DNA from: Candidatus Nealsonbacteria bacterium DGGOD1a
GTDB taxonomy: Bacteria > Patescibacteriota > Minisyncoccia > Minisyncoccales > UBA5738
Length of the DNA stretch: 64,000 bases
Reading direction: 5' to 3'
Assembly (NCBI GenBank): GCA_022530585.1
Contig: CP092821.1
Location: 70,222 to 134,221 of the forward strand
Positions within the stretch are counted from its first letter, which is position 1. Each line of letters starts with the position of its first letter. Under the pieces are notes generated by a model. That model was not told where the DNA came from. It did no database searches and saw nothing but the letters and a program-made list of their open reading frames with translations. The translations under genes and the position numbers were made by a program. Positions 1-43,720 of the stretch are shown here, one piece after another.

Positions 1-77
1 CACAAACCGCGCAAAAAATCAAAAAACTGCTGGCGGGCGAAGCAACCGGCATTTTATTTCCGCGGTTGGAAGAGTGA
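1..77 (+). CDS. C-terminal end of an unidentified CDS cut by the window edge
   Basis: Frame 3 is open from position 3 and reads QTAQKIKKLLAGEATGILFPRLEE, then TGA at 75-77. No family motif is visible. Confidence 0.25.
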   Translation, partial: QTAQKIKKLLAGEATGILFPRLEE

Positions 78-123
78 GTTTGCGTCTTCAGTTTTCTTTT
101 GGCAGATTGGGAATATAAATTCA

Positions 124-376
124 ATGGCAAAATTAACCGCGAAAGAAAAAGAAAAAATAATGAAACTGCGGTCTCAATTTCCGCGACAGCTCAATATCTC
201 CGTCCACTGTTGCGAGGAGGGGGGTTGCGGCGCGGATAAATGATTCTCCGGGTTGTATAACTGAAGGAAATACTTTTTCAGAATTGATTGAAATGGTAAA
301 CGATTGTCTTTATACTTATTTTGGAATACCGTTAAAATATCTTGGGTTTATGCCGACCTATTTGCCGCGGATATAG
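124..376 (+). pseudogene. HicB-like antitoxin (UPF0150-type), apparently split by a +1 frameshift
   Basis: ORF 124-243 ends ...VHCCEEGGCGADK*. The +1 frame from 245 continues SPGCITEGNTFSELIEMVNDCLYTYFG...PRI*. Joined, the two parts resemble the HicB N-terminal pattern eGG...PGc.TeG.T..E. Confidence 0.4.
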
Positions 377-418
377 AAATTTGCTAAAAAATGCAATCAC
401 TCACTGGGAAGTAAAATA

Positions 419-471
419 GCGAATTTGGAGGTCAATCCTCGGCTTGCGAGAGGTTTGACCTCCAAATTCGC
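419..471. repeat. Hairpin with a 17-bp perfect stem carrying a GAGGTCAA/TTGACCTC motif
   Basis: gcgaatttggaggtcaa (419-435) is the exact reverse complement of ttgacctccaaattcgc (455-471). There is an inner cctcg/cgagg stem. Related half-sites follow at about 486-535. Confidence 0.85.
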
Positions 472-849
472 GCCAGCCCTTACCGCAAATTCGTTGAGGA
501 TTGACCTCAAAATGCAAGTTCTCGAGGTCAAACCTTAACAAATTTGCTCCCCAGTGAGGGGTTACAAAAAAATATCTTGACGCCAAAGAATAAATTTTGT
601 ATATATTTAAACATAATCGAGATTATATTCAAATATAACTTTTTCAAGGTGAACAATCCGGCCGCGTTAAACAATCCAAACTTTAACTTTTTCTTTAGCC
701 CCTCTCGGAGTTCGGGAATTTTTCGTTTGCGCGGTTGATTTGAATTGTTGATAACGCTCAAAGCAAATGGCAAATTCTCGGACAACGAGATTTTTTGTTT
801 TTATAAACGCTTGTTGCCTTATAGATCGTTTAAAATTTGGAGAATCGCT

Positions 850-1248
850 ATGGAAATTGGAAAATTCCCGAACGCCATCAGGATGATGGCAGGTATAGAA
901 GAAAATGAAACCGCGATAAACCGGCTTGGGGTTTTTGTTTTGTCGAACCCCGATATCTACAAAGAAATAGCTGGTTTATTCCGCGAAAAATGTATCGGCC
1001 TTTTCCGTGAAAATTATTGCTGTGCGGAAAAGTGGACTCTTCAAGGGGTAAGTGGGTACGGCAGCTTCATTTCTTTCGGGGTGGGCGAGAGAATAAAGAG
1101 GCAAGAGAAGCTTATTGATGAAGAGCTCAATGATTTTCTATGCCAGAAGAGAAAGTCCGGCGAAAAAGATTTGGCTGTTTATTATTGCACAAACGGCAAT
1201 AAAGAACGCCATATTATTATCACGACAATAACATGCCCGCAGGTTTAA
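850..1248 (+). CDS. Hypothetical protein (~132 aa)
   Basis: Internal ATG (MEIGKFPN...) of ORF 745-1248. No motif recognised. It lies in a gene-poor, repeat-rich region. Confidence 0.3.
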   Translation: MEIGKFPNAIRMMAGIEENETAINRLGVFVLSNPDIYKEIAGLFREKCIGLFRENYCCAEKWTLQGVSGYGSFISFGVGERIKRQEKLIDEELNDFLCQKRKSGEKDLAVYYCTNGNKERHIIITTITCPQV

Positions 1249-1285
1249 TCCGCGGGCATCATTTTTAAAACTATTGGCAGCTTTT

Positions 1286-1346
1286 TCTGTTGAAGTTTCT
1301 GTTGAAGTTTCTGTTGAAATGTCTGTTGAAATCAAATTTCAACAGA
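1286..1346. repeat. Iteron-like array: four tandem 12-mers plus one inverted copy
   Basis: tctgttgaagtt occurs at 1286 and 1298, tctgttgaaatg at 1310, tctgttgaaatc at 1322, then an inverted ttcaacaga at 1338-1346. Confidence 0.85.
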
Positions 1347-2136
1347 AAATTTTTGCCATGTATGGTGATTTGGACAAGATGACCAAGGTTTACCATTCTG
1401 ATATGGATGATATCTTGCAAATAAGGGAAAAATATCTCTTGGAAGCCGTTGCTTTGCTTGGTAGATCATTTGATTGATTTCAATTTATCGGCTAATCATT
1501 GACGCGGGTTTGGTGTTTTGGTATTATTTAAATACAAATTTATGAATTGCCAAACATGGGAAACGAATATTGTGTTGATGGCGGCGGCACTTCTTTCTTT
1601 TAAGGAGGGTCTTTTGTTTGGCAGGGAATAACGGAAAATCAACGAACAAATCCAAAACTCTCCGAAAGGAGGGTTTTTTGTTTGTTGCAAAGCGGAACTT
1701 TTACAAATAAATATTGCGGAGTGATGCGCGTGGTCGACGGGAAAAAAGATGAACAAAGAGTTTTTTGGACTAAGACATCAAAAAAGGACGAAGATTATTT
1801 GGGCGGAAGTTGCAAGGCGAGACATCCTGTTCTTTCGGGCCAGGATTGCGCTTACGGCGATCCCCGAGATAAGCCGCCCGAAAAAACAGGGTGGGGACAT
1901 TGTCCGTATTCGCGGGAAAACGAAAATAAATAAAAATGGGGCAGTCGCTTGATCGCCCTTTTGTTTTGCTGTCTTGACGGGTTTGCATCGGTTTGATATA
2001 TATTAAATATAAGAATATGAAAAACCAGAATCGACAACTGAATAGCAATGGATTGTTGTTGGTCAGCCTGGTCCTTATTATTAAGGAGGGCTTTTTATTT
2101 GGCGCAAGTTAAAGAAAATAAAATTTGTTCCAAATA

Positions 2137-2164
2137 AAAAGCCCTTCCGCAAGAAGGGTTTTTA
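2137..2164 (+). terminator. Rho-independent terminator-like hairpin
   Basis: cccttc-cgcaa-gaaggg stem-loop followed by a ttttt run. Confidence 0.6.
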
Positions 2165-2373
2165 GTTGTTTAAAAATATAAGACCGAGGTTATCACCGAA
2201 TTGCGCTGAATCAATGATCCAGCATAGTTCGGTGGTAACCATAAAAATCTTTTCCAATGGATTACCCCCCCAGAGATATGGGGGGGTTAAGAAAGGCGAT
2301 GGCGATAGCTATCGTGATGGAGATAGAGATGGCGATCACAAGGATAATCCTTTTTGATCGCTTATTTTTTATG

Positions 2374-2416
2374 TTGAGGTTTGACCTCAACACAACCTCA
2401 ACACAACCTCAACAAA
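2374..2416. repeat. Perfect palindrome TTGAGGTTTGACCTCAA followed by tandem CACAACCTCAA units
   Basis: The 2374-2390 palindrome has the same GAGGT..ACCTC core as the 419-535 sites. An 11-nt unit is repeated twice directly after it. Confidence 0.8.
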
Positions 2417-2471
2417 TTGGCTTACTTTGTGTTTTATACGACAGGCGGGCGTTTTGCTTGAAAATTGGAAC

Positions 2472-2514
2472 ATTGAAAATTAATTGAAAATTGAAAATTG
2501 AAAATTGAAAATTT
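2472..2514. repeat. Tandem ATTGAAA heptamer tract upstream of the nadM-nadE fusion gene
   Basis: The sequence reads attgaaaattaattgaaaattgaaaattgaaaattgaaaattt. Related tracts occur at 5710-5730, 24647-24675 (reverse), 24754-24783 and 32620-32645. Confidence 0.85.
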
Positions 2515-2541
2515 GCGCTCATTGGATTAGAATATAACATT

Positions 2542-3825
2542 ATGGAAAATACAGATTATACCATCCCCAAAGGGAAGAAGGTGGTGTTTGTGGGGCGGTT
2601 CCAGCCGTTTCATAACGGGCATCTGGAGGCGATCAAGTGGATTTTGGGTCAGACGGGCGAGGTTAGCATTGTGATCGGCAGTATGCAGGAATACGGGCAG
2701 GCCAATAATCCGCTGGATTTCAAAGAGCGGAAAGAAATTTTGGAAGCGGCGTTAAAAGAAGCCGGGATCAAAAATTACAAGATTTTTGGGTTGCCGGATT
2801 TTCGCAATAACGCGGCCTGGTCAAAAAAGTTGTTGGAGGTCGCCGGACTTGACGCCGGCCGGGCGGTTTTAGTTTCTTTAAATGACTGGGCGCGGGAGAG
2901 CGCGCGCGAGATTGGCATCGAAATCGCGGATCATCCAATGTTTTTCGATAACTTGTCGGCCACGCAAGTGCGGCAAACCGTTGCCGCGGGTTTTGAATGG
3001 GATAAATTGGCGCCGGTCGCGGTTGCTCGCCATTTAAAAAATAACGGCGGGCTGAAAAGGATCGCCGACAGCCAAGTATTGCCCGAAGATAGAATAATCG
3101 GCTTCATTAAAGATAAAATGGCCGTGGCCGGATTGGAACGGTTGGTTTTGGGCGTTTCAGGCGGGATTGATTCGGCGGTAACCGCCGCGCTGTTGCAAAA
3201 GGCGTTCAAGAAAAAAATAACATTCGTCTGGATGCCGTTCGTGCGCAAGTGCCCGTTTGGGAAAAATGTGGCGCGTCTGGAAGAGGCGTTCAAGATCAAG
3301 GTTGAAAAAATCTATCTGGACAAGATGATCCAAACTTTCGTCAAGGCCTTGCCCAACGGCGGCAATTTGGTCTATGGCAATTTAAAGCCGCGGATTCGCA
3401 TGGCCACGCTTTATTATTTCGCCAATTTAAGAAAGGGGATGGTGGTGGGTACCACCAATCGCACGGAGCTGGAAATCGGTTATTTCACCAAGTACGGCGA
3501 CGGCGGCGTGGATATCGAGCCGATCGCCGATCTTTACAAGAGCGAGATATATGATATGGCCAAACGGTTGAAAATTCCTTCCGAGATCATCGAAGCCGCG
3601 CCCACGGCCGCGTTATGGCCGGGGCAGACCGATGAAAAAGAGCTTGGCTTGAGTTATTTTCAATTGGATACGGTGTTGAAGCTGTTGAGTCAGGGATTTC
3701 TTCCCGAAGAGGTTTGCCGCCTCACGAATACCGACGCTAAAAAGATGCGAAAGATCCTTGATCGGAAAAAGAATAACGCGCACAAGCTGGCGATGCCTCC
3801 GGTGTGCGTATTGAAAAGCGAATAA
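2542..3825 (+). CDS. nadE: Fusion protein: N-terminal NMN/NaMN adenylyltransferase (archaeal NadM-type) plus C-terminal NAD synthetase (NadE-type)
   Basis: The N-terminus has VVFVGRFQPFHNGH (cytidylyltransferase H-x-G-H motif). The C-terminal half has LGVSGGIDSAV (PP-loop SGGxDS) and TNRTELEIGYFTKYGDGG. Confidence 0.8.
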   Translation: MENTDYTIPKGKKVVFVGRFQPFHNGHLEAIKWILGQTGEVSIVIGSMQEYGQANNPLDFKERKEILEAALKEAGIKNYKIFGLPDFRNNAAWSKKLLEVAGLDAGRAVLVSLNDWARESAREIGIEIADHPMFFDNLSATQVRQTVAAGFEWDKLAPVAVARHLKNNGGLKRIADSQVLPEDRIIGFIKDKMAVAGLERLVLGVSGGIDSAVTAALLQKAFKKKITFVWMPFVRKCPFGKNVARLEEAFKIKVEKIYLDKMIQTFVKALPNGGNLVYGNLKPRIRMATLYYFANLRKGMVVGTTNRTELEIGYFTKYGDGGVDIEPIADLYKSEIYDMAKRLKIPSEIIEAAPTAALWPGQTDEKELGLSYFQLDTVLKLLSQGFLPEEVCRLTNTDAKKMRKILDRKKNNAHKLAMPPVCVLKSE

Positions 3826-3837
3826 CATTATTTTGCG

Positions 3838-3875
3838 GGGGTCTAACCCCTGCGATTACACAGGGGATAGACCCC
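3838..3875. repeat. 38-nt GC-rich nested hairpin repeat, copy 1
   Basis: ggggtctaacccctgcgattacacaggggatagacccc, with an outer ggggtct/agacccc stem and an inner cccctg/cagggg stem. It lies 14 nt upstream of the next start codon. Confidence 0.9.
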
Positions 3876-3888
3876 AAAAATAGAAATT

Positions 3889-4845
3889 ATGGATATTATC
3901 AATATTCTTTTGGTTGTCGGCGGCTTGGCGATTTTTGAGATCGTCAACAGTATCGATAACGCCATTATCAATGCCCATGTTTTGAAAACGATGAGCGTCA
4001 AATGGCGCAAGATTTTTCTGTTTTGGGGATTGATATTCGCGGTGTTTGTGATCCGCGGGGTTTTGCCGTTTTTGATCGTATGGATCACGGTGCCCGGGAT
4101 TTCGATCGTTGAAGCTTTCCAAGCGATGTTTTCCGGCGCGCCGGAAGTCGTCGAGGCGATAAACGCGGGCAAACCGCTGATTTTGATGGGGGCCGGAGTT
4201 TTTCTTTTGCTTTTATATCTTCACTGGCTGTTCCTTGAAGAAAAATTGCCGCTGTTCGTGGTCGACAAACTGATCAAGCCGCATTTTGGAATATGGTTTT
4301 TCGCGTGCGCGGCGGTTTTGCTTACCGCTTTGCTTTATTTTGCCAAAGCCAACCCTTTATTGATGCTTTCGGCGGCGATTGGCAACGCGATGTTTTTTAT
4401 TCTCTACGGGTTCCGCGAGCAAGCCGAAAAGGGAAGCGAACGATTGCTGGCCGGCGGCGGCGGGATGGGCGATCTTTCCAAATTCTTATATCTGGAAGTT
4501 TTGGACGCGTCATTTTCTTTTGACGGAGTTTTGGGAGCGTTCGCGTTCACGACATCGATTCCATTGATATTGATCGGCAACGGCGTTGGCGCGTTTGTGG
4601 TGCGGGAAATGACCATCAGAAGCATTGATAAGGTGGCCAATTACAAATTCCTGAAGAACGGCGCGATGACATCAATCGGGATATTGGGAGCGATCATAAT
4701 TTTTGAGAGTTTCTCCGAGAGTTTGAAATTGGGTTTTGACATCCCCGACGCGGCCGCGCCGTTGATAACTTTCGCGCTGGTGGGCGTGGCATTTTGGGAA
4801 TCCCATAAGTTATTAAAGAAAGAAAATCATGCCGCGGCTGGTTGA
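3889..4845 (+). CDS. TerC/DUF475-like integral membrane protein
   Basis: Multi-pass hydrophobic profile. The N-terminal EIVNSIDNAIINA resembles the TerC-family E..S.DN motif. Confidence 0.55.
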   Translation: MDIINILLVVGGLAIFEIVNSIDNAIINAHVLKTMSVKWRKIFLFWGLIFAVFVIRGVLPFLIVWITVPGISIVEAFQAMFSGAPEVVEAINAGKPLILMGAGVFLLLLYLHWLFLEEKLPLFVVDKLIKPHFGIWFFACAAVLLTALLYFAKANPLLMLSAAIGNAMFFILYGFREQAEKGSERLLAGGGGMGDLSKFLYLEVLDASFSFDGVLGAFAFTTSIPLILIGNGVGAFVVREMTIRSIDKVANYKFLKNGAMTSIGILGAIIIFESFSESLKLGFDIPDAAAPLITFALVGVAFWESHKLLKKENHAAAG

Positions 4846-5668
4846 CACTCACGCGCATTTGAATCTGGAGGTCTTTGACGGCGATCGCTGGCAGGTGATC
4901 GAAAATTCCTTGAGCGAGGGGGTTTTTATGATCAATGTCGGAGTCAACTACGCTTCGTCTTTGCGCGCGGTGGAAATCGCCGAAGATTCCGGCAAAGGGG
5001 TTTGGGCGGCGATCGGCTTGCATCCGGAAAATATCGACGACGATTTCCACCCCGATATCAAAGATTTCCGGCGGCCCGAAGACATCAAGGAACCGGCGTT
5101 TGATGCCAAACTTTATCGTAAGCTGGCGCGATCATCCCAAAAAATTGTTGCCATCGGCGAGATCGGTTTGGATTATTTGCATTTGCCCAAAGACCAAATT
5201 AAAGCGCCGCGCGTCCGCGACAAGCAGGCGGATATTTTCAAACGACAACTGGCGCTGGCCCGCGAACTTGATTTGCCCGCGATTATCCATACGCGCATCG
5301 CGCATAAGGACACGATCGGGATTTTGCGCGAATTCGCGGAATCGGAGGGAAGCGTTAAAGGCGTGATCCATTGTTTCACCGGCAACGCCAAAGAAGCGCG
5401 TCAGTATTATGATTTGGGATTGCATTTCGGATTGAACGGCATTATTTTCAAGCTCGATTTGAATGAGGTGATCGCAAAAATGCCTTTGGACCGGATTTTG
5501 CTGGAAACCGATTGTCCGTTTCTGTCCCCTTCGCGTGAAATCAAACGCAACGAACCGAAATATGTTTTGAATATCGCCGAGCGCGTGGCGCAAATTCGCA
5601 ACGATTCGGTTGAAACCATCATCGAAGCCGCTACGGTAAACGCGAAAAAACTGTTTGGTATCGGTTGA
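4829..5668 (+). CDS. TatD-family metal-dependent hydrolase/DNase
   Basis: N-terminal LVDTHAHLN, then EIGLDY, IHTR, GVIHCFTG and ETDCPFL motifs typical of TatD/YcfH. Confidence 0.85.
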   Translation: MPRLVDTHAHLNLEVFDGDRWQVIENSLSEGVFMINVGVNYASSLRAVEIAEDSGKGVWAAIGLHPENIDDDFHPDIKDFRRPEDIKEPAFDAKLYRKLARSSQKIVAIGEIGLDYLHLPKDQIKAPRVRDKQADIFKRQLALARELDLPAIIHTRIAHKDTIGILREFAESEGSVKGVIHCFTGNAKEARQYYDLGLHFGLNGIIFKLDLNEVIAKMPLDRILLETDCPFLSPSREIKRNEPKYVLNIAERVAQIRNDSVETIIEAATVNAKKLFGIG

Positions 5669-5751
5669 TTTTATTTTGATTTAAGCTATTATTGGAATTG
5701 TTCGAAAATTGATAATTGGAAATTGGAAATTCGCCGCGTTAGGCGGTTTTC

Positions 5752-5837
5752 GGAGGGATCGCATAGTGGCATTGCAAGAGGTTGCTAACCTCTGACGGTC
5801 TTAAAGCCGTCCGTGGGTTCGAATCCCGCTCCCTCCG
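5752..5837 (+). tRNA. tRNA-Ser (anticodon GCT)
   Basis: Manual fold: acceptor ggaggga/tccctcc, anticodon stem agagg/cctct with loop ttGCTaa, long variable arm gacgg...ccgtc, T-loop ggttcgaatcc. No encoded CCA. Confidence 0.9.
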
Positions 5838-6138
5838 CTTTCACCCGCCGTAGCTTTATGCGCTGGCGGGTTTTGCTTGAATCTACCGCGGGCGATAGCG
5901 GATAAGCCCGCTCATAAAAATAGAACTGCCGAGGAATAAGTGATGATGCGCAAAAAAGACTAAAGACTGGTTCTGACGGGATCGTGTTTTTGTTGGGTCT
6001 TGTTTAATCTTAATTGAGCGTAGCGAAATCAAGATTAAACAAGCACTCTTGTTGAATCTTACATAATCTTATATAGTTAAAATAGAAGATTAATTTTTTT
6101 ATTTACTTTTAATTGCGAAATCATTATTTATTCAAAAA

Positions 6139-7224
6139 ATGGAAAATAAATTTAATGTTCGTTTGGAGAATTTGCCGGCGGAGATTTGGCGGATGGTGAG
6201 CGAAATTGACGAGTACAAGGGCCGGTGGATTGCCGGGGCGCAGTTGAACCCGCAGGTGCTGGGACGCTTGAAACGGTCGGTTCTGATTACTTCCACCGGC
6301 GCTTCCACGCGGATTGAGGGCTCCAAGCTCTCCGACGAAGATATTGAAAAAATGATGCGAGGGATAGATATTCAAAAATTTGCCGATCGCGACAAGCAGG
6401 AAGCGCGAGGATATTATGAATTGTTAGAGAATGTTTTTAATTCTTGGCAATCGCTTAACTTTTCGGAAAACACCATCAAACATTTTCATAAGGAGCTTTT
6501 GAAGTATGTGGCCAAGGATGAGGGGCATCGAGGAGAATATAAAAAACAAGACAATAAAGTGATTATGGTTAACGGTGCCGGGCAGTCGGTTGGCGTTTTA
6601 TTTGATACTACTTCGGTTCATTTGACGCCCAAGGAAATGCAGGAGCTGGCGGAGTGGGCACAGGTTGCGTTTAAAGAAAAGAAATATCATCCGCTTTTAA
6701 TAATCGCGAATTTTATTGTTGAATTTTTGGCAATTCATCCATTCCAAGATGGAAATGGCCGGCTTTCCCGTGTTCTTACCAATTTATTGCTTTTGAAAAG
6801 CAATTATCAATACGCGCCCTATGTTTCTCACGAGAAACTTATTGAGGATAACAAACCGGAATATTATCTGTCGTTGCGGAAAAGCCAAAAAACATTTTTG
6901 TCTGCCAATGATTTAGCTATGGAGGATAAGACGCCAAAAGAGGATATTGCTTCTTGGTTGGAGTTTTTCTTGGGAATTATTTTGAAGCAATCGCGGATGG
7001 CGATTGATTTGCTTTCAAGGGAGAATATCGAAAAATTGCTCTCGCCCAAACAACTTAAAGTTTGGGAATATTTTCAGCAGGCAAACGAAGCGACGCCGGC
7101 TCAAATCGCCGCCGCCACCGGTATCGCTCGCCCCACGCTGAACCAATCGCTCGATAAACTTCTGCGTCTGAAAAAAATTGAACGCCTGGGCCAGGGCCGC
7201 GCCACTCGCTATCGCAAAATATAG
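6139..7224 (+). CDS. Fic-family protein (AMPylase-type) with a C-terminal winged-helix region
   Basis: Canonical Fic motif HPFQDGNGRLSR. The C-terminus has an HTH-like segment, ATPAQIAAATGIARPTLNQSLDKL. Confidence 0.85.
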   Translation: MENKFNVRLENLPAEIWRMVSEIDEYKGRWIAGAQLNPQVLGRLKRSVLITSTGASTRIEGSKLSDEDIEKMMRGIDIQKFADRDKQEARGYYELLENVFNSWQSLNFSENTIKHFHKELLKYVAKDEGHRGEYKKQDNKVIMVNGAGQSVGVLFDTTSVHLTPKEMQELAEWAQVAFKEKKYHPLLIIANFIVEFLAIHPFQDGNGRLSRVLTNLLLLKSNYQYAPYVSHEKLIEDNKPEYYLSLRKSQKTFLSANDLAMEDKTPKEDIASWLEFFLGIILKQSRMAIDLLSRENIEKLLSPKQLKVWEYFQQANEATPAQIAAATGIARPTLNQSLDKLLRLKKIERLGQGRATRYRKI

Positions 7225-7340
7225 TGAGCCGCGCAACGGGGTACAGATCATCCGGCCGGGTATTTATTAATAATCTTGGATTGCGAAACCCTTCAAAGCA
7301 TTTGGATTTAATGGTTTCGTAATTCAAAGTAATAAACATT

Positions 7341-7512
7341 TAATTTGAGAGTGTAGAAAAACTATTTTCGGAACGAAATTTTCAGATTTCGAGCGAGAAA
7401 AATGAGGAAGGAGAAGGCATACTTGACTTAAAGTCTGCCGCCGACTGACGAATTTTTCGTAGCCGAAAGATGGAAATTGCAGTTGAAATATAGTTTTTCT
7501 ACACTCTCAATT
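7341..7512. repeat. ~170-bp imperfect palindrome (MITE-like or long hairpin RNA)
   Basis: 21-bp perfect terminal inverted repeat: ttgagagtgtagaaaaactat (7344-7364) versus atagtttttctacactctcaa (7489-7509). The interior arms are also partly complementary. Confidence 0.8.
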
Positions 7513-7857
7513 TAACTTTGGCTCGTTCATCTGCTTTGATAAAGTATCGTCCAAAACCATGATGGCTTTAATCCATTTCCTTGAAACTTAAACGCATTGA
7601 GGATAATATCCAAAACCTTGCGAACCCTATTTCTATTTTCAAGTGAAAGATTGTCAAATTTAGCCATATTTTTTCATTACTTTTTTATACCCGACTGGTT
7701 GAGGCAATCTTAATGGTTCCGTCGATTTATTTCAAGATTAAAGCAAATCAACCTTGACAATGACCAATAATTTGGTTAGGCTTTGGTCAGAAAAATTTTT
7801 GGAGGTATATTAGTGCCTTTTGTAGAAAATTCACAACAAGCAACCAAGGAAAGGGTT

Positions 7858-8139
7858 ATGGAAGGAAGTATCAGCGATACCGCGATGGAGCTTATGAACA
7901 GACTTCACCTGCTTGGAAATGGAAGCACAGAAGAAGAACTTTCTTGGCTTTGCACCGCAATCAATAGTAAATACAATGAAGGTGACATAGAGAGTATTTA
8001 CGGATTGCCGGATATTCTGCTCGCAAAAGTCATAGAGCATAATGATGGTAAACTTCTATCGTGCGCGGCAATTATTGCCAAGGCACTCCATTTGCCAGTC
8101 TTCGAAGCAAAAAAGGCTATTGAAGCATTAGAGGAATAA
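7858..8139 (+). CDS. Hypothetical protein
   Basis: ORF only (MEGSISDTAMELMNRLHLLG...). No motif recognised. Confidence 0.3.
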   Translation: MEGSISDTAMELMNRLHLLGNGSTEEELSWLCTAINSKYNEGDIESIYGLPDILLAKVIEHNDGKLLSCAAIIAKALHLPVFEAKKAIEALEE

Positions 8140-8353
8140 ATTTATTTTAATTTATTTTCTTTTTTTTATACGCTTATTGGTCTAACAATTTCTTATTCAT
8201 CAGGGACTTCCTTTTTTATCGTTTTATCTTATCGGGACGAGATTAAGTCTTTCCAGTTCTATACCGACTGTTTTCCAATCTACCGTTCTAAACTCATTCA
8301 CTAACGCCCGCCTTCACCCCGCCGCCGCTTTATGCGAAAGCGGGCTTTGTTTT

Positions 8354-8372
8354 CAGAGGGTCTAACCCTCTG
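8354..8372. repeat. Short hairpin of the GGGTCTAACCC type
   Basis: cagagggtctaaccctctg. It is related to the core of the 38-nt repeat and lies upstream of the ATPase gene. Confidence 0.7.
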
Positions 8373-8440
8373 AAACCTTCTGAATTTTAAGTGAGGCGGT
8401 TTTGCTTTCGCGAAATCGTTTTTTATTCTAAAATGGAAAA

Positions 8441-10993: not shown

Positions 10994-11060
10994 TTTTTAG
11001 CGTTTAAAATGGTTTAGTAAGGATGAAATGTTTTGTCGGCGCAAAGCCGCGGCAAGACGA

Positions 11061-11148
11061 GGAGGGTTGGCTGAGTGGCCTATAGCGCTGGTCTTGAAAA
11101 CCAGTTGGGGGCAACCCCTCGGAGGTTCGAATCCTCCACCCTCCGCCA
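11061..11148 (+). tRNA. tRNA-Ser (anticodon TGA), CCA encoded
   Basis: Acceptor ggagggt/accctcc, anticodon stem ctggt/accag with loop ctTGAaa, long variable arm, T-loop ggttcgaatcc, terminal gcca. Confidence 0.9.
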
Positions 11149-11190
11149 TGACGATGTCAGCCTGTTTGCCTACGACGGATGCCGCGATCC

Positions 11191-11245
11191 GAATATTTTA
11201 GGAAAAATCGCTCTTTGGGCGATTTCTTAGTATAATCAAATTAAA
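11191..11245 (+). promoter_or_regulatory. Repeated hairpin plus -10-like block, copy 1
   Basis: aaaaatcgctctttgggcgattt hairpin followed by tagtataat. A near-identical block lies at 13531-13586. Both precede membrane-anchored protein genes. Confidence 0.5.
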
Positions 11246-11250
11246 TATTT

Positions 11251-11601
11251 ATGGGTAATGTATTAAAAAACAACCCAAAAGCATACTTGCAGATAATAAC
11301 ATTCGCAATCTTGCTTTTTGTTTTTTATAAACTGGGCTTCCCATCGTATTTTATTGTTGGGATGGGGATTTTTATTTTACTGCTCATTTTGTTAAAGGGA
11401 AAACTTTTTAATAAGATTGATTCTTTTTTGACCGCCAGATTGCCTTTTCTTTCCAAGCAAAGCCCGCGCGTTAAAAAGCTGATTATCGCGATTGCTTTTG
11501 TTATCGCGTATATTTTTTTGAAACAAATCGCCTTTTTTGTTTTGTCGCGGTTCGGGGTTGATGTTCAAAAAATAATAATGGATGGCGTTAATAATAATTG
11601 A
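11251..11601 (+). CDS. Small integral membrane protein (hypothetical)
   Basis: Three or four hydrophobic helices. No motif recognised. Confidence 0.5.
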   Translation: MGNVLKNNPKAYLQIITFAILLFVFYKLGFPSYFIVGMGIFILLLILLKGKLFNKIDSFLTARLPFLSKQSPRVKKLIIAIAFVIAYIFLKQIAFFVLSRFGVDVQKIIMDGVNNN

Positions 11602-11695
11602 AAAAGGTAATTGGAAAAATACCATGGCGGATTTTATTAAAACAATTTAGAATACCATCGTAATAAAATATTTATTCACGGCTAGCTTTGATTTT

Positions 11696-12532
11696 ATGAA
11701 TAAAGAGATTATAACAACAAAAATAGCGATTTTCCGAAAAAAAGAGATACGCAAAATCATTCATAATAACGAGTGGTATTTTTCAGTTTCTGATGTAATC
11801 GAGGCATTAACCGATACTGTCGATGTCAGAGATTACATAAAAAAAATGAGAAAGCGTGATGTTAAGTTGGATGATTACTGGGGGACAAATTGTCCCCTGC
11901 TTGGAATGATTGCGAAAGATGGCAGAAAAAGGAAAATTACCAGTGCGAATACAGAAGGAATTTTTCGTATTATCCAGTCAATCCCGTCTCCAAAAGCCGA
12001 ACCATTCAAGCGTTGGCTGGCAAAAGTGGGATATGAAAGAGTGCGGGAAATTGAAGATCCGGAATTGGCAACCAAGAGAACGAGGGCGCTTTATAAACTC
12101 AAAGGGTATTCTGAAAGTTGGATAGAAAAACGAATGCGCGGAATTGCCATTCGCGAAGAATTGACGGATGAATGGCAAAAATGCGGCGTAAAAGAGCAAA
12201 AAGAATATGAGATTTTGACCGCCGAGATTTCCAAAGCCACTTTCGGCATGACTCCGAGTGAATATAAAAAGCTGAAGGGGCTAAAAAGACAGAATTTACG
12301 CGACCACATGAATGATCTGGAATTGATTTTTAATATGCTTGGTGAGCGGGTGACAACAGAAATATCGCAACAAGAAAATCCGGATACTTTTGTAAAAAAT
12401 AAAAAAGTGGCAAAAAGAGGCGGTGGTATTGCCGGAAATGCCCGCAAACAAACAGAAAGAGAATTGGGCAGGCCGATTATATCAAAAGAAAACTATTTGC
12501 AAAAACCAGAAGAAAAGAAAAGGTTGAAATAA
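11696..12532 (+). CDS. BRO-N domain protein (DinD/antirepressor-like)
   Basis: N-terminal FRKKEIRKIIHNNEWYFSVSDVIEALT and the later PKAEPFKRWLAKVGYERV are typical of Bro-N-containing proteins, often phage-derived. Confidence 0.6.
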   Translation: MNKEIITTKIAIFRKKEIRKIIHNNEWYFSVSDVIEALTDTVDVRDYIKKMRKRDVKLDDYWGTNCPLLGMIAKDGRKRKITSANTEGIFRIIQSIPSPKAEPFKRWLAKVGYERVREIEDPELATKRTRALYKLKGYSESWIEKRMRGIAIREELTDEWQKCGVKEQKEYEILTAEISKATFGMTPSEYKKLKGLKRQNLRDHMNDLELIFNMLGERVTTEISQQENPDTFVKNKKVAKRGGGIAGNARKQTERELGRPIISKENYLQKPEEKKRLK

Positions 12533-12812
12533 GAATCGATGCTTTGCCGAATTTAAATGGTCGCCAATAAATAATGATTTTTGTAAAAAATTAGTTTGCG
12601 AACAAGGGAAAATTTAGGTGGCAGGTATCGATTCCAATAAATTTCATTTATAATTCACTTAATAATAAACTTATAAAAAAAGTTGGTTCCGCGAATTGCG
12701 AACCCGTTACCGGCAAATCATTGACCTGGCAAATCACCGGAGCGGTGTTTTTATTATTGGCGTATTGTTAATTTACAAAAATATTAAAAAGCAAAAAATA
12801 TGAACAAACAAT

Positions 12813-13160: not shown

Positions 13161-13184
13161 AATTATTATTAATATAATTAAACT

Positions 13185-13496: not shown

Positions 13497-13530
13497 ATGG
13501 AGGTTTGAATTTTAACCGCCGCGCAATTCG

Positions 13531-13586
13531 GAATGTTTTAAAGAAAAATCGCTCTTTGGGCGATTTTTTAGTACAATCAAGTTAAA
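13531..13586 (+). promoter_or_regulatory. Repeated hairpin plus -10-like block, copy 2
   Basis: gaatgttttaaagaaaaatcgctctttgggcgattttttagtacaatcaagttaaat is near-identical to 11191-11245. Confidence 0.5.
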
Positions 13587-13659
13587 TGCGAATATATCCT
13601 ATAAAAGATAAAGCATTTAACCAATCTAAATGGCGGATTTGATAAATTATAAAAACATT

Positions 13660-14169: not shown

Positions 14170-14177
14170 CCAAACTT

Positions 14178-15125: not shown

Positions 15126-15305
15126 AAACAAAACAGTAATCATTGGAACCCGTTTATTGAGTTTTGTATTTTAAGGGTCTATCCCCTGCGACTTCTCTTG
15201 AGGCTTTTGCGAATGGCGATGTTTATTTTGGATTCATTAGCAATCACAGCCAACTCTGTAAAAAATAAGATTATGTAATGAAACTATATAAAAATTGCGG
15301 ATTTC

Positions 15306-15327: not shown

Positions 15328-15406
15328 ATTGGACAATTATAACGGGACGGGTTAGCCTTAAATAAAGGTCATAATTTAAAAATAATTAAAATTTAAAAAC
15401 AAAAAT

Positions 15407-17674: not shown

Positions 17675-17750
17675 GGTTTGTTTTCCGCTTTGTGATGAAA
17701 ATATAGGATAACTTTTAATTACGAAACCGTTGAATTCAAATACTTTTAAA

Positions 17751-17788
17751 GGGGTCTAACCCCTGCGATTACACAGGGGATAGACCCC
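17751..17788. repeat. 38-nt GC-rich nested hairpin repeat, copy 2
   Basis: Identical to copy 1: ggggtctaacccctgcgattacacaggggatagacccc. Confidence 0.9.
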
Positions 17789-17829
17789 AAAATACAAAGC
17801 GTTTCGTAATTTAAGGAAATAAATTGGAT

Positions 17830-23117: not shown

Positions 23118-23262
23118 TTGGCAAAGGTTAAAAATTAACCGGAAATGATCGGATTTTGACCGAAGCGCGGCGGGTACGGGTCTAAAATTTGACTTTGATC
23201 GCAAGAAGCGGTAAATTTATATCATACCCGATTCGGCGGGTGTTTTTTTGAGGGTAAATAAA

Positions 23263-23281
23263 ACAAGGGTTAGACCCTTGT
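23263..23281. repeat. Short hairpin of the GGGTTAGACCC type upstream of atpB
   Basis: acaagggttagacccttgt, 7 nt before the atpB start. Confidence 0.7.
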
Positions 23282-23288
23282 TAAAAAG

Positions 23289-25329: not shown

Positions 25330-25365
25330 GGGTCTAACCCTCGCGATTACACGAGGGATAAACCC
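25330..25365. repeat. GC-rich nested hairpin repeat, copy 3 (variant with compensatory changes)
   Basis: gggtctaaccctcgcgattacacgagggataaaccc. The inner stem ccctcg/cgaggg replaces cccctg/cagggg. It ends 3 nt before the atpH ATG. Confidence 0.85.
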
Positions 25366-38628: not shown

Positions 38629-39870
38629 ATGGCCGAGTTTAAATTTGAAATAATAAAACAGGATAAAAATTCGCGCGCGCGCGCCGGGGTGATCCATACG
38701 CGCCGGGGAGATATTGAAACGCCTTATTTTGTGCCGGTGGGGACTTTGGCGTCGGTGCGCGGTTTGGATTCATCCGACCTTGGAATGTTGGGCGCGCAAT
38801 GCGCGCTGATCAACACTTACCATTTGCATTTAAAGCCGGGCGACGAAACGATCAAGAAATTGGGCGGAACTCATAAATTTATGAATTTTGATTTGCCCTT
38901 GTTTTCGGATTCGGGCGGCTTTCAGGCGTTCTCGCTGGGATTGGCGCGCGAGCACAACATCGGCAAGATCGGCGTTTTCCCGGAAGAAACCGCGAACAGT
39001 GAACTTCTCGGAAATTTTAAAAGGGTCCGACCCTTTTTAAAAGGGTCCGACCCTTTTAAAAAAAATCTGGTACGAATCACCGGCGGGGGTATTGAATTCC
39101 GATCAATCTATGACGGATCGCGGCATTTTTTCGATGCCAAGAAATCGATGGAAATACAATCAAATTTGGACAGCGATATCATTATGGCGTTTGACGAATG
39201 CACCTCGCCGCTTTCGGATTATGATTATACCAAGATCGCGATGGCGCGGACTCACGATTGGGCCGAGCAATCGCTGGAATACCACAATAAAGACCAGGCA
39301 ATCTACGGCATAATCCAAGGCGGTTATTTCAAGGATTTGCGCGATATTAGCGCGAAATTTATCAATGATCTGCCTTTTGACGGGATTGCCATCGGCGGGT
39401 CGCTGGGAAAAACAAAAGCGGATATGCACGAAATTATTGATTGGGTGATTCCGCAATTGGATGTCCGGCCGCGCCATCTTTTGGGAATTGGAGAGATTGA
39501 TGATATTTTTAAATCCGTGGAACAAGGAATCGACACTTTTGATTGCGTGGCGGCCACGCGCAACGCGCGGCGCGGCTGTTTGTTTGTATTGCCCGAATCG
39601 GGCGGAAGTTTGGCCAACAAATTCCGCCTCAACATTTCCGGCGCGAAATATAAAAACGACAGCGATCCGATTGACGCAAACTGCCATTGCCCGGTATGCG
39701 AAAATTACTCCCGCGCCTATTTGCGTCATTTGCACAACGCGCGCGAATTAAGTTATTTTCGCCTGGCGACGATCCATAATTTGTGGTTTATGCTTCGCCT
39801 GATGGAAAAAATCCGGGAAAGCATAGAAAACGGCAGATTCGCGGAACTGAAAAAAGAATGGTTGGGATAA
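38629..39870 (+). CDS. tgt: Queuine tRNA-ribosyltransferase
   Basis: FSDSGGFQAF (catalytic Asp region), GIAIGG, and zinc site CHCPVCENYSRAYLRHLH. It carries an internal insertion of a palindromic repeat. Confidence 0.9.
   Translation: MAEFKFEIIKQDKNSRARAGVIHTRRGDIETPYFVPVGTLASVRGLDSSDLGMLGAQCALINTYHLHLKPGDETIKKLGGTHKFMNFDLPLFSDSGGFQAFSLGLAREHNIGKIGVFPEETANSELLGNFKRVRPFLKGSDPFKKNLVRITGGGIEFRSIYDGSRHFFDAKKSMEIQSNLDSDIIMAFDECTSPLSDYDYTKIAMARTHDWAEQSLEYHNKDQAIYGIIQGGYFKDLRDISAKFINDLPFDGIAIGGSLGKTKADMHEIIDWVIPQLDVRPRHLLGIGEIDDIFKSVEQGIDTFDCVAATRNARRGCLFVLPESGGSLANKFRLNISGAKYKNDSDPIDANCHCPVCENYSRAYLRHLHNARELSYFRLATIHNLWFMLRLMEKIRESIENGRFAELKKEWLG
39015..39065. repeat. Tandem palindromic repeat inserted in-frame in tgt
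   Basis: ttttaaaagggtccgaccc (39015-39033), tttttaaaagggtccgaccc (39034-39053), then ttttaaaaaaaa. Each unit is a hairpin aaaagggtc-c-gaccctttt. It is translated as FKRVRPFLKGSDPFKKN. Confidence 0.85.
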
Positions 39871-43452: not shown

Positions 43453-43578
43453 CCATTAAAACTCGCGAAATATTTTTATAAAGGGTTCGACCCTTTGGAT
43501 TATGTCTCGGGAATACTTGGGACGGGCGATAAGACTAGACCTTTGAAATGAGAAAACACCCCGAATGCTTTCTTGCCA

Positions 43579-43614
43579 GGGGCTAACCCCTGCGATTACA
43601 CAGGGGATAGACCC
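43579..43614. repeat. GC-rich nested hairpin repeat, copy 4
   Basis: ggggctaacccctgcgattacacaggggatagaccc followed by ttaaaatacaaa. A truncated reverse copy lies at about 15150-15190. Confidence 0.85.
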
Positions 43615-43720
43615 TTAAAATACAAACCCCAGTGAGGGGTTACGCCGCGCGCTATTGACATTGAAAAATTTGAAGAGTATGATTAAGGCAGTCCGATGAA
43701 AATCGGACATTAGTTTTAAT

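What the first reader, a model, noticed from the sequence alone, without database searches (positions are those of the whole stretch)
3838..3875. 38-nt GC-rich nested-hairpin repeat recurring just upstream of genes, with a compensatory variant
GGGGTCTAACCCCTGCGATTACACAGGGGATAGACCCC occurs identically at 3838-3875 and 17751-17788. A 1-nt shorter version lies at 43579-43614. A variant at 25330-25365 has the inner stem changed on both sides (CCCTCG...CGAGGG instead of CCCCTG...CAGGGG), which preserves pairing. A truncated reverse copy lies near 15150-15190, and mini-versions (GGGTCTAACCC / GGGTTAGACCC hairpins) lie at 8354-8372 and 23263-23281.

Copies end 3-80 nt before start codons (DUF475, HAD, atpH, ATPase, atpB). 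The length and partial palindromy resemble a CRISPR repeat, but the copies are solitary. The compensatory change argues for selection on structure, as an RNA or a protein-binding cruciform.
Basis: seen in the sequence. Interest (0 to 1): 0.55.

Follow-up and report, generated by a model that had tools for sequence, protein, structure and literature searches.

The report
REP-like hairpin repeats, Patescibacteria genome
The 38-base hairpin is one form of a family of small palindromic repeats scattered between genes in tiny-genome Patescibacteria (CPR bacteria); it looks like the REP/REPIN elements of E. coli and Pseudomonas, because the same genomes carry a single-copy, RAYT-like enzyme gene bracketed by hairpins of this family.

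Summary
The 38-mer is exact at 3838-3875 and 17751-17788. Variants lie at 43578-43615 and 25330-25365 (inner stem changed on both sides). There is also a truncated reverse copy and several mini hairpins.

It folds as one long hairpin made of two inverted GGGTCTA(A/T)CCC modules. I found 66 distinct copies in Patescibacteria assemblies. Pairing is kept in 98% of cells, and five stem pairs change on both sides.

The elements lie almost only between genes. They show no bias for 5' or 3' gene ends, transcription direction or GC skew. They are present or absent between related genomes. They form no CRISPR-like arrays, match no Rfam family and have no terminator T-tract.

The key result concerns a ~250-aa HUH/tyrosine enzyme. 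In 8 of 8 genomes examined, including the window's own genome 32 kb upstream of the window, its single-copy gene is bracketed by species-specific short hairpins. In the window's genome these are CGAAGG-TCTAA-CCTTCG. The best structural match of the enzyme is the E. coli REP-associated transposase bound to a REP hairpin.

The best reading is a REP/REPIN-RAYT-like system, apparently undescribed in CPR bacteria. It departs from the classic kind: no GTAG/CGTC tag, and the enzyme fails the curated RAYT model. That this enzyme mobilises the 38-mer is inferred, not shown.

The parts
3838..3875 (+). Full 38-nt doublet hairpin, standing alone in the 63-nt spacer between the NAD synthase gene and the DUF475 gene
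   Evidence: Exact match. Fold. Flanking genes. An orthologous copy is present in the related MAG at L001:2652-2690.
17712..17816 (+). Composite 'class A' element of about 105 nt. It has 16-nt terminal inverted repeats (CTTTTAATTACGAAAC / GTTTCGTAATTTAAGG) around the exact 38-mer at 17751-17788
   Evidence: The same composite is present in L060 but absent from the orthologous spacer of L024, L063 and L044.
25330..25365 (+). Variant doublet with a compensatory inner stem (CCCTCG/CGAGGG) and one C.A mismatch. It lies between atpF and atpH and ends 2 nt before the atpH ATG
   Evidence: The same stem variant occurs in other assemblies (L005, L018).
43578..43615 (+). Variant doublet with 3 substitutions, inside a mosaic that also holds the mini hairpin at 43480-43496 and the conserved 3' piece CCCCAGTGAGGGGTTAC. 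It lies upstream of nusA
   Evidence: (class C alignment).
15163..15195 (-). Truncated copy: the 3' half of the doublet plus the conserved AAAATACAAA flank
8351..8375 (+). Mini hairpin TTTCAGAGGG-TCTAA-CCCTCTGAAA (single module)
   Evidence: The same unit brackets the RAYT-like gene in L021.
23262..23282 (-). Mini hairpin AACAAGGG-TTAGA-CCCTTGTT (single module, opposite orientation), 7 nt before atpB
43480..43496 (.). Mini hairpin AAAGGG-TTCGA-CCCTTT
7289..7333 (-). Fragment of the class A left arm, ending at the first bases of the hairpin
   Evidence: (inverted repeat I25, 82% complementary to 17708-17752).
39019..39062 (.). Tandem pair of mini hairpins AAAAGGG-TCCGA-CCCTTTT. They lie in frame inside the tgt ORF, in a loop that varies between species. 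Family membership is less certain
   Evidence: The same unit occurs in spacers of the window's genome (L087 at 8646, 15867, 16652, 18152).
2372..2392 (.). Mini hairpin TGTTGAGG-TTTGA-CCTCAACA. It has the same design as the hairpins that bracket the RAYT-like gene in L096. Family membership is less certain
1322..1346 (.). Mini hairpin TCTGTTGAAA-TCAAA-TTTCAACAGA. It has the same design as the hairpins that bracket the RAYT-like gene in L094. Family membership is less certain

Best explanation
The 38-mer is a REPIN-like doublet. Two copies of a short REP-like module (GGGG-TCTAA-CCCC and its near-complement GGGG-ATAGA-CCCC) sit in inverted orientation around a 12-nt spacer and fold into one long hairpin.

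It belongs to a modular family found in Patescibacteria. The family includes single mini hairpins, double minis, doublets with several loop types, and larger mosaics.

These elements behave as non-autonomous, selfish or semi-domesticated DNA. They are gained and lost in intergenic DNA and survive only where they do not break genes. Sub-families keep their pairing because the hairpin itself is what gets recognised.

The likely partner is a single-copy, RAYT-like HUH/Y1 endonuclease of about 250 aa. Its gene lies in the same genomes and is always bracketed by hairpins of this design. By analogy with E. coli TnpA-REP and IS200/IS605 TnpA, it would bind the hairpin in single-stranded DNA and cut and rejoin next to it.

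Shown here: repetition, fold, covariation, intergenic restriction, lack of polarity, presence/absence polymorphism, the enzyme-hairpin association, and the enzyme fold.

Inferred: that this enzyme mobilises the 38-mer, that recognition happens on ssDNA, and any effect on the mRNAs that carry the hairpin.
For: 1. Family and fold. The pattern scan gave 85 hits to the core pattern, 66 of them distinct, in 76 loci. All named sources are Patescibacteria MAGs. The fold is one long hairpin. The 11-mer module is enriched 11 versus 0.31.

2. Pairing is maintained. 98.4% of cells pair, 5 pairs change on both sides, and 0 of 500 shuffles reach this. Many alternative stems occur: CCCTG, CCCCG, CCTCG, CCTTG, CCTCTG and others.

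3. Modularity. Singles, inverted dimers and mosaics all occur, as described for REP families (PMC3733652).

4. Location. About 86-88 of 90 element clusters are intergenic in DNA that is 79% coding.

5. Gain and loss. L060 carries a 125-nt element where three related genomes have a 22-nt spacer. L004, L043 and L021 carry different module combinations at one site.

6. The enzyme.
- L021:3077-3835 hits Pfam Y1_Tnp (24.6 bits, cut-off 23). Its best NCBIfam hit is the RAYT model.
- There are 155 homologues, and nearly all named ones are Patescibacteria.
- The HUH motif (NHxH) and a tyrosine in Y(I/V)(Q/H)xxN are invariant.
- The AlphaFold model has pLDDT 85.7. Its top PDB match is 4er8_A, 'REP associated tyrosine transposase bound to a REP hairpin' (E 5.5e-5, probability 1.0), ahead of the IS200/IS605 transposases.

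7. The association. In 8 of 8 genomes the gene is bracketed on both sides, within 130 nt or less, by hairpins of one design. In 7 of the 8 the two flanking hairpins share the same stem; in L090 they differ. This holds even in loci with no other copy.

8. The gene sits at one locus per genome. The true IS200 in the window sits in at least 6 distinct sequence contexts.

9. The window's own genome has the gene. P0017 lies on JARDUI010000019.1 at 167278-168036, about 32 kb upstream of the window. It is bracketed by CGAAGG-TCTAA-CCTTCG and CGAAGG-TTAGA-CCTTCG. In the close relative L021 the bracketing hairpin contains the exact 11-mer of the 38-mer.
Against: - The link between the 38-mer and the enzyme rests on a shared module (GG-TCTAA-CC) and co-occurrence. 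No 38-mer was seen directly bracketing a RAYT-like gene.
- In DAOSDI01, a genome rich in 38-mers, the RAYT-like gene I examined is bracketed by an unrelated hairpin, TAGCGATA-TCAAA-TATCGCTA.
- As ssDNA the 38-mer prefers the long hairpin, not two mini hairpins. How a mini-hairpin binder would read it is unclear.
- There is no GTAG or CGTC tag.
- The enzyme scores far below the curated RAYT cut-off (22.4 versus 80 bits). A sequence profile finds solved Y1 transposases only at E 0.4.
- Classic REPs favour the 3' ends of genes and avoid divergent spacers. These do not.
- The copies were collected with an exact core pattern, so conservation of the core and loop is partly an ascertainment effect.
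- Gene calls were heuristic.
- No target-site duplication or exact insertion boundary could be defined.
Confidence: 0.68

Rival explanations
1. A host cis-acting RNA hairpin. Transcribed within operons, it would stabilise upstream mRNA against 3' exonucleases, direct processing, or mask translation starts. Selection would then act on RNA structure.
For: The RNA hairpin is very stable, -28 to -32 kcal/mol. Copies sit inside operons, for example atpF-atpH, ending 2 nt before the ATG. At one site different genomes carry different hairpins in the same position (case 4). Classic REPs are known to have such secondary effects (PMC3733652).
Against: Orientation relative to the flanking genes is mixed, about 11 same versus 7 opposite. 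Copies occur in convergent and divergent spacers in proportion to the available space. No T-tract follows the hairpin, and none is flagged by the terminator scan, which does find ordinary terminators nearby. There is no Rfam match. The outer arms of class A drift by one-sided transitions, G.T 24 versus A.C 29 with no compensation, so they are not constrained as RNA. Related genomes lack the element at the same spacer.
Confidence: 0.14
2. A derivative of the IS200/IS605 element in the window (a PATE-like element), moved in trans by that element's TnpA (34389-34838) rather than by the RAYT-like protein.
For: The window encodes a genuine IS200 TnpA (Pfam 9.6e-31; NCBIfam IS200 110.9 bits). Identical IS copies in at least 6 distinct sequence contexts suggest it is active. 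Its end hairpins CCCTG(T)CGGTCTTGCCGCAGGG share CCCTGCG...CAGGG and GGTCT with the 38-mer.
Against: The shared stretch is short and was noticed after the fact. The IS-specific ends (ATAATGTTTTCA... / ...TCATTTAC) never accompany the 38-mer. No TnpA homologue and no IS-end hairpin occurs in the other 76 loci, about 517 kb. The related genome L037/L020 has 38-mers but lacks the island that carries the IS at this site.
Confidence: 0.06
3. A double-stranded or cruciform DNA site for a host protein (nucleoid protein, gyrase, recombinase), or a DNA-uptake signal used by the competence machinery.
For: Palindromy, a conserved mismatch and loop, and lack of polarity would all suit a symmetric DNA site. 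RAYT-like genes sit beside comEC (L090) and dprA (L092) in two genomes.
Against: Stem sequences change freely as long as pairing is kept. That argues for intrastrand pairing rather than reading of a fixed duplex sequence by a dimer. Uptake sequences in Neisseria and Haemophilus are also common inside genes (established knowledge), whereas all 11 module occurrences in the window avoid ORFs. The elements are gained and lost between relatives.
Confidence: 0.07
4. Orphan CRISPR repeats, or remnants of an array.
For: The 36-38 nt length and partial palindromy resemble a CRISPR repeat.
Against: There are 0 hits for repeat, 15-45 nt, repeat in the metagenome collection, and 0 hits in viral contigs. 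Copies are solitary or in inverted pairs, and they have conserved non-repeat flanks and composite forms.
Confidence: 0.01

Closest known systems
REP / REPIN elements with their RAYT (TnpA-REP) gene, as in E. coli and Pseudomonas fluorescens
   Same: Short imperfect palindromes at many intergenic sites. Singles, inverted dimers that fold into longer hairpins, and mosaics. Sub-families with alternative complementary stem residues. A single-copy HUH/Y1 gene bracketed by the repeats. The enzyme fold is closest to 4er8 (RAYT bound to a REP hairpin).
   Different: No GTAG or CGTC tag. No preference for 3' ends of genes or avoidance of divergent spacers. The basic unit is a 6-12 bp stem with a T-NNN-A loop. 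The enzyme is about 250 aa (165 in E. coli) with an extra N-terminal region and C-terminal helices, and it fails the curated RAYT model (22 versus 80 bits). The hosts are roughly 1-Mb CPR genomes. A copy of the hairpin often lies inside the enzyme's own ORF.
BIMEs (bacterial interspersed mosaic elements) of enterobacteria
   Same: Mosaics of oppositely oriented palindromic units joined by conserved linkers. Class B here is two hairpins in opposite orientation within 13-nt inverted ends.
   Different: The sequences are unrelated. Binding of IHF, gyrase or Pol I is unknown here.
IS200/IS605 insertion sequences and their non-autonomous PATE derivatives
   Same: Subterminal hairpins read as ssDNA by a Y1 HUH transposase. 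One such IS sits in the window (34269-34877).
   Different: IS ends are two direct-orientation hairpins around a multi-copy transposase gene. The 38-mers are solitary, lack the IS ends, and occur in genomes and loci without this TnpA.
TIR-type MITEs such as Neisseria Correia elements
   Same: The class A composite is about 105 nt with 16-nt terminal inverted repeats, is intergenic, and is present or absent between relatives.
   Different: Many copies consist of the bare 38-mer with no inverted ends. No target-site duplication was identified. The inverted ends drift while the core module recurs in other architectures.
CRISPR repeats
   Same: Length and partial palindromy only.
   Different: No arrays, no spacers, inverted dimers, conserved flanks.

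Membership tests
REP (repetitive extragenic palindrome) elements | Short (20-40 bp) imperfect palindrome able to form a stem-loop | tested here: met
   38 nt with 8 + 6 bp and one mismatch. z is -5 to -7 as RNA or DNA.
REP (repetitive extragenic palindrome) elements | Many dispersed copies per genome | tested here: inconclusive
   The 64-kb window has 11 modules in about 9 elements. The same genome has about 15 more elements in 20.7 kb (L087). No whole genome could be counted. Extrapolation gives on the order of 100 or more per genome.
REP (repetitive extragenic palindrome) elements | Extragenic location | tested here: met
   About 86-88 of 90 clusters lie outside ORFs in DNA that is 79% coding. 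One in-frame intragenic pair lies in tgt.
REP (repetitive extragenic palindrome) elements | Unpaired GTAG or CGTC tag at one end (the two super-families of PMC3733652) | tested here: not met
   The flanks are TTGC / TTGAA on the 5' side and AAAATACAA on the 3' side. On the other strand the 5' flank reads TTTGTATTTT.
REP (repetitive extragenic palindrome) elements | Sub-families with alternative complementary stem residues; singles, head-head or tail-tail dimers, and clusters | tested here: met
REP (repetitive extragenic palindrome) elements | Mostly between unidirectional and convergent ORFs, downstream of genes | tested here: not met
   Tandem/divergent/convergent counts are 40/11/10, against a background spacer length split of 70/15/15%.
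RAYT (REP-associated tyrosine transposase) | HUH motif and catalytic tyrosine on a Y1 transposase fold | tested here: met
   NHxH and Y166 are invariant. Foldseek's top hit is 4er8_A at E 5.5e-5, followed by the ISDra2 and IS608 TnpA structures.
RAYT (REP-associated tyrosine transposase) | Passes the curated family model (NCBIfam NF047646) | tested here: not met
   22.4 bits against a cut-off of 80. Pfam Y1_Tnp scores 24.6 against 23.
RAYT (REP-associated tyrosine transposase) | Single-copy gene bracketed by copies of the genome's own REP | tested here: met
   8 of 8 genomes, with one locus each.
RAYT (REP-associated tyrosine transposase) | Binds and cleaves its REP as single-stranded DNA | not testable with these tools
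   This needs purified protein and oligonucleotides.
CRISPR array | Direct repeats at regular spacing, separated by unique spacers | tested here: not met
   0 hits for repeat, 15-45 nt, repeat in the metagenome collection. Copies in the window lie 8-18 kb apart.
Intrinsic terminator | GC-rich hairpin followed by a T-run on the transcribed strand | tested here: not met
   The T-run precedes the hairpin and an A-run follows it, on both strands. None of the copies in 1-20000 is flagged.
IS200/IS605 end or PATE | Carries the left-end or right-end hairpins and cleavage sites of a cognate IS | tested here: not met
   The IS ends (ATAATGTTTTCA..., CCCTGCGGTCTTGCCGCAGGG...TCATTTAC) occur only at the IS itself.
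TIR-type MITE | Terminal inverted repeats plus a target-site duplication | tested here: inconclusive
   Class A has 16-nt inverted ends. The filled-versus-empty comparison was too diverged to show a duplication. Bare 38-mers have no inverted ends.
Rfam RNA families | Score at or above a family's gathering threshold | tested here: not met
   Only tRNAs pass. The permissive scan gives generic long-hairpin models well below threshold.

The most novel reading that the evidence does not exclude
Patescibacteria carry a previously undescribed, divergent clade of RAYT-like HUH enzymes. It would be inherited vertically at one locus and co-evolve with its own short-hairpin repeats. It would have been kept in roughly 1-Mb streamlined genomes because the pair does something for the host. 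One candidate role is handling single-stranded DNA during uptake or replication, since neighbours include ComEC, DprA, PriA and DnaA/DnaN. Another is setting genome-wide hairpin punctuation of operons. The hairpin copy inside the enzyme's own ORF could serve as a self-regulating site.
Probability: 0.15. Interest if true: 0.7.

Novelty: new variant of a known kind. Interest (0 to 1): 0.45.

Why it matters
REP/REPIN-RAYT systems have been studied mainly in Proteobacteria, and in the phyla covered by the REP survey I read (PMC3733652). Whether they are parasites or domesticated partners of the host is still debated.

Finding the same logic in CPR bacteria would be informative. These genomes are among the smallest and most streamlined known, so persistent repeats and a conserved single-copy HUH enzyme are hard to explain as neutral baggage. 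The system has a divergent enzyme, a different hairpin design, and repeats at a density of roughly one per 5-10 kb.

There are practical consequences too. These hairpins fill operon junctions such as the atp operon, so they will affect gene calling, operon prediction and assembly in CPR metagenomes. The enzyme family is currently annotated only as 'transposase' or 'hypothetical'.

Tried and rejected
- CRISPR origin. The scan for repeat-spacer-repeat in metagenomes found nothing. The viral-contig scan found nothing.
- Known RNA family. The Rfam gathering scan of the window and permissive scans of two copies gave only tRNAs and sub-threshold generic hairpins.
- Terminator. No T-tract follows the hairpins, and none is flagged.
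- Polarity. I tested orientation against the flanking genes, spacer type and GC skew. All were random.
- Strand-specific RNA selection. A few early cases suggested G.U pairs on the minus strand. On 16 class A elements the counts are symmetric, G.T 24 versus A.C 29, so I dropped the idea. One thing remains: the loop-closing C.A on the + strand is T.G on the other strand in both main loop families.
- Integron attC, suggested by GTCTAAC fitting RYYYAAC. I rejected it because the element is far shorter than the attC sizes I recall (about 57 bp or more), the 3' core is GATAGAC rather than GTTRRRY, the copies are not in cassette arrays, and none of the window proteins I scanned against Pfam is an integron integrase.
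- IS200 TnpA of the window as the mobiliser. No co-occurrence in the other loci.
- Sequence-profile search of solved structures with the RAYT-like family. Only insignificant hits, ISDra2 TnpA at E 0.42. The fold comparison was needed.
- Literature. Six searches found no description of REP, RAYT or MITE elements in Patescibacteria/CPR.
- Target-site duplication. It could not be resolved from the available filled-versus-empty comparisons.
Full report

Yes. The 38-mer GGGGTCTAACCCCTGCGATTACACAGGGGATAGACCCC is exact at 3838-3875 and 17751-17788. A third copy at 43578-43615 differs by three substitutions. None is expected by chance. The repeat finder adds the fourth copy at 25330-25365 and shows that similarity extends a few bases into both flanks: TTGC on the 5' side and AAAATACAAA on the 3' side (family D7).

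The copy at 25330 has CCCTCG/CGAGGG where the others have CCCCTG/CAGGGG. It also has one uncompensated change. The 'truncated reverse copy' is 15163-15195, which is the 3' half plus the conserved flank. The mini hairpins at 8351-8375 and 23262-23282 are real. The 11-mer GGGTCTAACCC, allowing one mismatch, occurs 11 times against 0.31 expected.

Two details need correcting. The copy near 43579 is a substitution variant, not a deletion. The preferred fold is one long hairpin (8 bp, an A.A mismatch, 6 bp, loop CGATTACA) rather than nested hairpins. Free energy is -28 kcal/mol as RNA and -15 as DNA, z about -5 to -7.

**2. Where the window comes from**

The window is 100% identical over 6.45 kb to Ga0310376_1000051 and 99.95% identical to JARDUI010000019.1. 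A protein encoded on JARDUI010000019.1 is named by NCBI as from Candidatus Nealsonbacteria bacterium DGGOD1a. GC content is 41-49%, and GC skew is positive across the whole window. My heuristic gene calls put 66 genes on the + strand and 13 on the - strand.

**3. The element elsewhere**

I scanned with a pattern that leaves two inner-stem positions free on each arm. It found 26 places in 9 Patescibacteria assemblies in the species-representative genome set and 50 more in metagenome contigs. It found none in viral contigs. Together with the window this gives 85 copies, 66 of them distinct.

On 53 distinct 55-nt copies, 98.4% of stem cells pair. Five pairs change on both sides:
- outermost pair: G-C 29, A-U 19
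- U-A 31, C-G 19, G-C 1
- C-G 43, U-A 10
- U-A 48, C-G 2
- G-C 52, A-U 1

No shuffle out of 500 reaches these values.

One caveat applies. The pattern fixed the loop and part of both arms, so conservation of those positions is an ascertainment effect.

A looser structural search of the fetched DNA shows a wider family with 97 distinct doublets. Loops include CGATTACA, CAGTAA, CGGTAA and CATTAA. Stems include CCCTG, CCCCG, CCTCG, CCTTG and CCTCTG. The mismatch is A.A, T.T or absent.

**4. Anatomy: a modular family**

The constant piece is the module GG(G)TCTA(A/T)CC(C). It appears in several arrangements:
- Alone, as a mini hairpin (CAGAGGG-TCTAA-CCCTCTG, CGAAGG-TCTAA-CCTTCG).
- As two minis back to back.
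- As the 38-mer type doublet.
- Inside larger composites.

Class A is about 105 nt, with 16-nt inverted ends CTTTGAATTACGAAAC around the 38-mer. The window's copy is 17712-17816. Class B has two doublets in opposite orientation within 13-nt inverted ends. A fragment of a class A arm lies at 7289-7333.

In 16 distinct class A elements the outer arms drift by one-sided transitions: G.T 24, A.C 29, with no double changes. The arms are therefore not constrained as RNA helices, and there is no strand asymmetry.

**5. Position and polarity**

In 60 non-redundant loci (461 kb, 79% coding by a greedy ORF call) there are 90 element clusters. Only 4 fall 'inside' ORFs. Two of those are ORF over-extensions, where the true start follows the hairpin. 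One is a chance 9-mer.

Of the clusters with both flanking genes called, 40 lie in tandem spacers, 11 in divergent spacers and 10 in convergent spacers. The background share of spacer length is 70/15/15%, so there is no preference.

For core copies in tandem spacers, about 11 point with the genes and 7 against. This is my count. Relative to local GC skew the split is 16 versus 13. The window's four-out-of-four + orientation is therefore not significant.

The hairpins have a T-run before and an A-run after on both strands. They are not flagged by the terminator scan, which does find ordinary terminators nearby. Rfam has nothing. No repeat-spacer-repeat arrangement exists in the metagenome collection.

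**6. Gain and loss**

In L060 a 125-nt class A element fills the spacer between two genes. The spacer is 22 nt in three related genomes: L024, L063 and L044.

At another site three relatives with 92-95% identical flanks carry different content:
- a double mini only (L021)
- a double mini plus part of class A plus a further hairpin (L004)
- a full class A plus that further hairpin (L043)

The window's copy at 3838 is shared with the relative L001 at the orthologous spacer. So some copies are old and others are polymorphic.

**7. The partner enzyme**

While annotating hairpin-dense loci I found that L021:3077-3835 (252 aa) hits Pfam Y1_Tnp just above its cut-off. L021 comes from the same MAG as L001, the window's closest relative. 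The best NCBIfam hit is the REP-associated tyrosine transposase model, far below its cut-off at 22.4 versus 80 bits.

The gene is bracketed by CAGAGGG-TCTAA-CCCTCTG hairpins. It has 155 homologues. Sources name them transposase or hypothetical protein from Nealsonbacteria, Pacebacteria, Parcubacteria, Staskawiczbacteria and 'Patescibacteria group'. NHxH (the HUH motif), GRxFQG and a tyrosine in Y(I/V)(Q/H)xxN are invariant.

An AlphaFold model built from 23 sequences has pLDDT 85.7. Its best match among solved structures is 4er8_A, the E. coli REP-associated tyrosine transposase bound to a REP hairpin (E 5.5e-5, probability 1.0, TM 0.53 on the target). The ISDra2 and IS608 transposases follow. 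A sequence profile alone reaches these only at E 0.4.

I then looked at the gene's surroundings in eight genomes. In all eight it is bracketed on both sides, within 130 nt, by short hairpins of one design. In seven the two sides share the same stem; in L090 they differ.

| Locus | Bracketing hairpin |
|---|---|
| L087 (window's genome) | CGAAGG-TCTAA/TTAGA-CCTTCG |
| L021 | CAGAGGG-TCTAA-CCCTCTG |
| L092 | GGAGAGG-TTCGA/TCGAA-CCTCTCC |
| L094 | TTGTTGAAG-TCAGA-CTTCAACAA |
| L096 | (GG/AT)TTGAGG-TTTGA/TCAAA-CCTCAA(CC/TC) |
| L097 | TCGAGG-TTGCA-CCTCGA |
| L010/L039 | TAGCGATA-TCAAA-TATCGCTA |
| L090 | two different stems, with loops TCCGA and TTAGA |

In several of these loci the only copies present are the ones at the gene, so chance flanking is excluded. 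Each gene sits at one locus across samples. P0089 is the clearest case: 23 contigs read, and the two places shown have the same gene neighbourhood.

In the window's genome the gene (P0017) lies on JARDUI010000019.1 at 167278-168036. That is about 32 kb upstream of window position 1.

This arrangement is the signature of REP-RAYT systems: a single-copy HUH/Y1 gene bracketed by the genome's own dispersed hairpin.

**8. Contrast with the IS200 in the window**

The window also holds a genuine IS200/IS605 element at about 34269-34877, with tnpA at 34389-34838. Pfam gives 9.6e-31 and NCBIfam IS200 gives 110.9 bits. Its own direct-orientation end hairpins are at 34286-34306 and 34848-34868.

Identical copies sit in at least 6 distinct sequence contexts in related assemblies. 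It behaves as a multi-copy IS, unlike the RAYT-like gene. Its ends share only CCCTGCG/CAGGG and GGTCT with the 38-mer. Neither the TnpA nor its end hairpins occur in the other 76 loci. I treat it as a weak rival mobiliser.

**9. Best explanation and its limits**

The 38-mer is a REPIN-like doublet of a REP-like module. It belongs to a family tied to a RAYT-like enzyme. Pairing is kept because the hairpin is what is recognised and copied. Copies persist only between genes.

The following points remain inferred:
- That this enzyme moves the 38-mer. The link is the shared module and co-occurrence, and in DAOSDI01 the examined RAYT-like gene is bracketed by a different hairpin.
- That recognition is on ssDNA.
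- Any effect on mRNA.

Departures from the classic kind:
- no GTAG/CGTC tag (PMC3733652)
- no 3'-end preference
- a larger enzyme that fails the curated RAYT model
- a hairpin copy inside the enzyme's ORF in 4 of 8 genomes

**10. Novelty**

Full-text searches found no description of REP, RAYT or MITE elements in Patescibacteria/CPR. I classify this as a new variant of a known kind. It is of moderate interest. The repeat itself is ordinary in type. Its occurrence, with a conserved partner enzyme, in streamlined CPR genomes is not obvious and can be tested.

Noticed in passing
window 34269-34877: A complete IS200/IS605-type insertion sequence. tnpA is at 34389-34838, and direct-orientation end hairpins CCCTG(T)CGGTCTTGCCGCAGGG lie at 34286-34306 and 34848-34868. 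Identical copies sit in at least 6 distinct sequence contexts in related assemblies. The ends are ATAATGTTTTCA... and ...TCATTTAC, and it inserts after TAA/TTA-like sequences.
   Followed up: yes
window 32733-38596: An island next to tRNA-Ala (32661-32732). It carries a large serine recombinase (32543-34243, minus strand), the IS200, and HTH and SHOCT genes. It has 124-nt and 219-nt inverted repeats (32729-32852/36411-36534 and 36531-36749/38360-38578). In the related genome L037/L020 the flanking regions are separated by only about 100 nt, so this interval has no counterpart there.
   Followed up: partly
window 5844-8352: A second tRNA-adjacent insertion, after tRNA-Ser (5752-5838). It is bounded by 35-nt direct repeats at 5844-5878 and 8318-8352 and carries a Fic/DOC plus HTH gene (6139-7224). 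The relative L001 has different DNA here. A mini hairpin sits immediately after the second repeat.
   Followed up: partly
window 24005-24089, 25776-25860, 28246-28371, 29724-29845, 43710-43837, 46194-46341: A separate family of AT-rich, roughly 85-125 nt long palindromic repeats (AAAATGTAAAAATCAAAATGA...). In the window most of them end just before start codons, at most atp operon junctions and before nusA. Together with the GC-rich hairpins they fill nearly every atp junction.
   Followed up: no
window 39019-39062: Two tandem mini hairpins (AAAAGGG-TCCGA-CCCTTTT) lie in frame inside the tgt gene. They encode part of a loop that differs between species (FKRVRPFLKGSDPFKK versus an unrelated stretch in L037).
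   Followed up: partly
L087:10206, L092:7473, L094:2659, L096:2684: In 4 of 8 genomes the RAYT-like gene carries a copy of its own bracketing hairpin inside the ORF, 160-205 nt from the start. In the AlphaFold model of P0017 (the L087 gene) this falls in the low-confidence region, residues 55-80. It may be self-regulation or a tolerated self-insertion.
   Followed up: partly
L090, L092/L093, L096, L098: Neighbours of the RAYT-like gene include ComEC (L090), DprA (L092/L093), DnaA-DnaN (L096) and PriA (L098). All of these handle DNA replication or uptake. This could be chance.
   Followed up: no
L021:1-4377 and L087:1-6536: The RAYT-like gene of the window's lineage lies in or beside a locus that looks like a diversity-generating retroelement: a giant FGE-sulfatase-domain protein, bAvd, and a reverse transcriptase. 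Double mini hairpins flank the bAvd gene.
   Followed up: no
window 54202-54444/54681-54923 and 58191-58474/58688-58971: Two pairs of 243-nt and 284-nt direct repeats, 98-100% identical and about 480-500 nt apart. They overlap small ORFs next to a 952-aa ORF (55208-58066).
   Followed up: no
window 63816-63836: Hairpin TCGCGAAGG-CGA-CCTTCGCGA between tRNA-Gly and tRNA-Pro. It has the same stem as the hairpins that bracket the RAYT-like gene in this genome, but a shorter loop.
   Followed up: no
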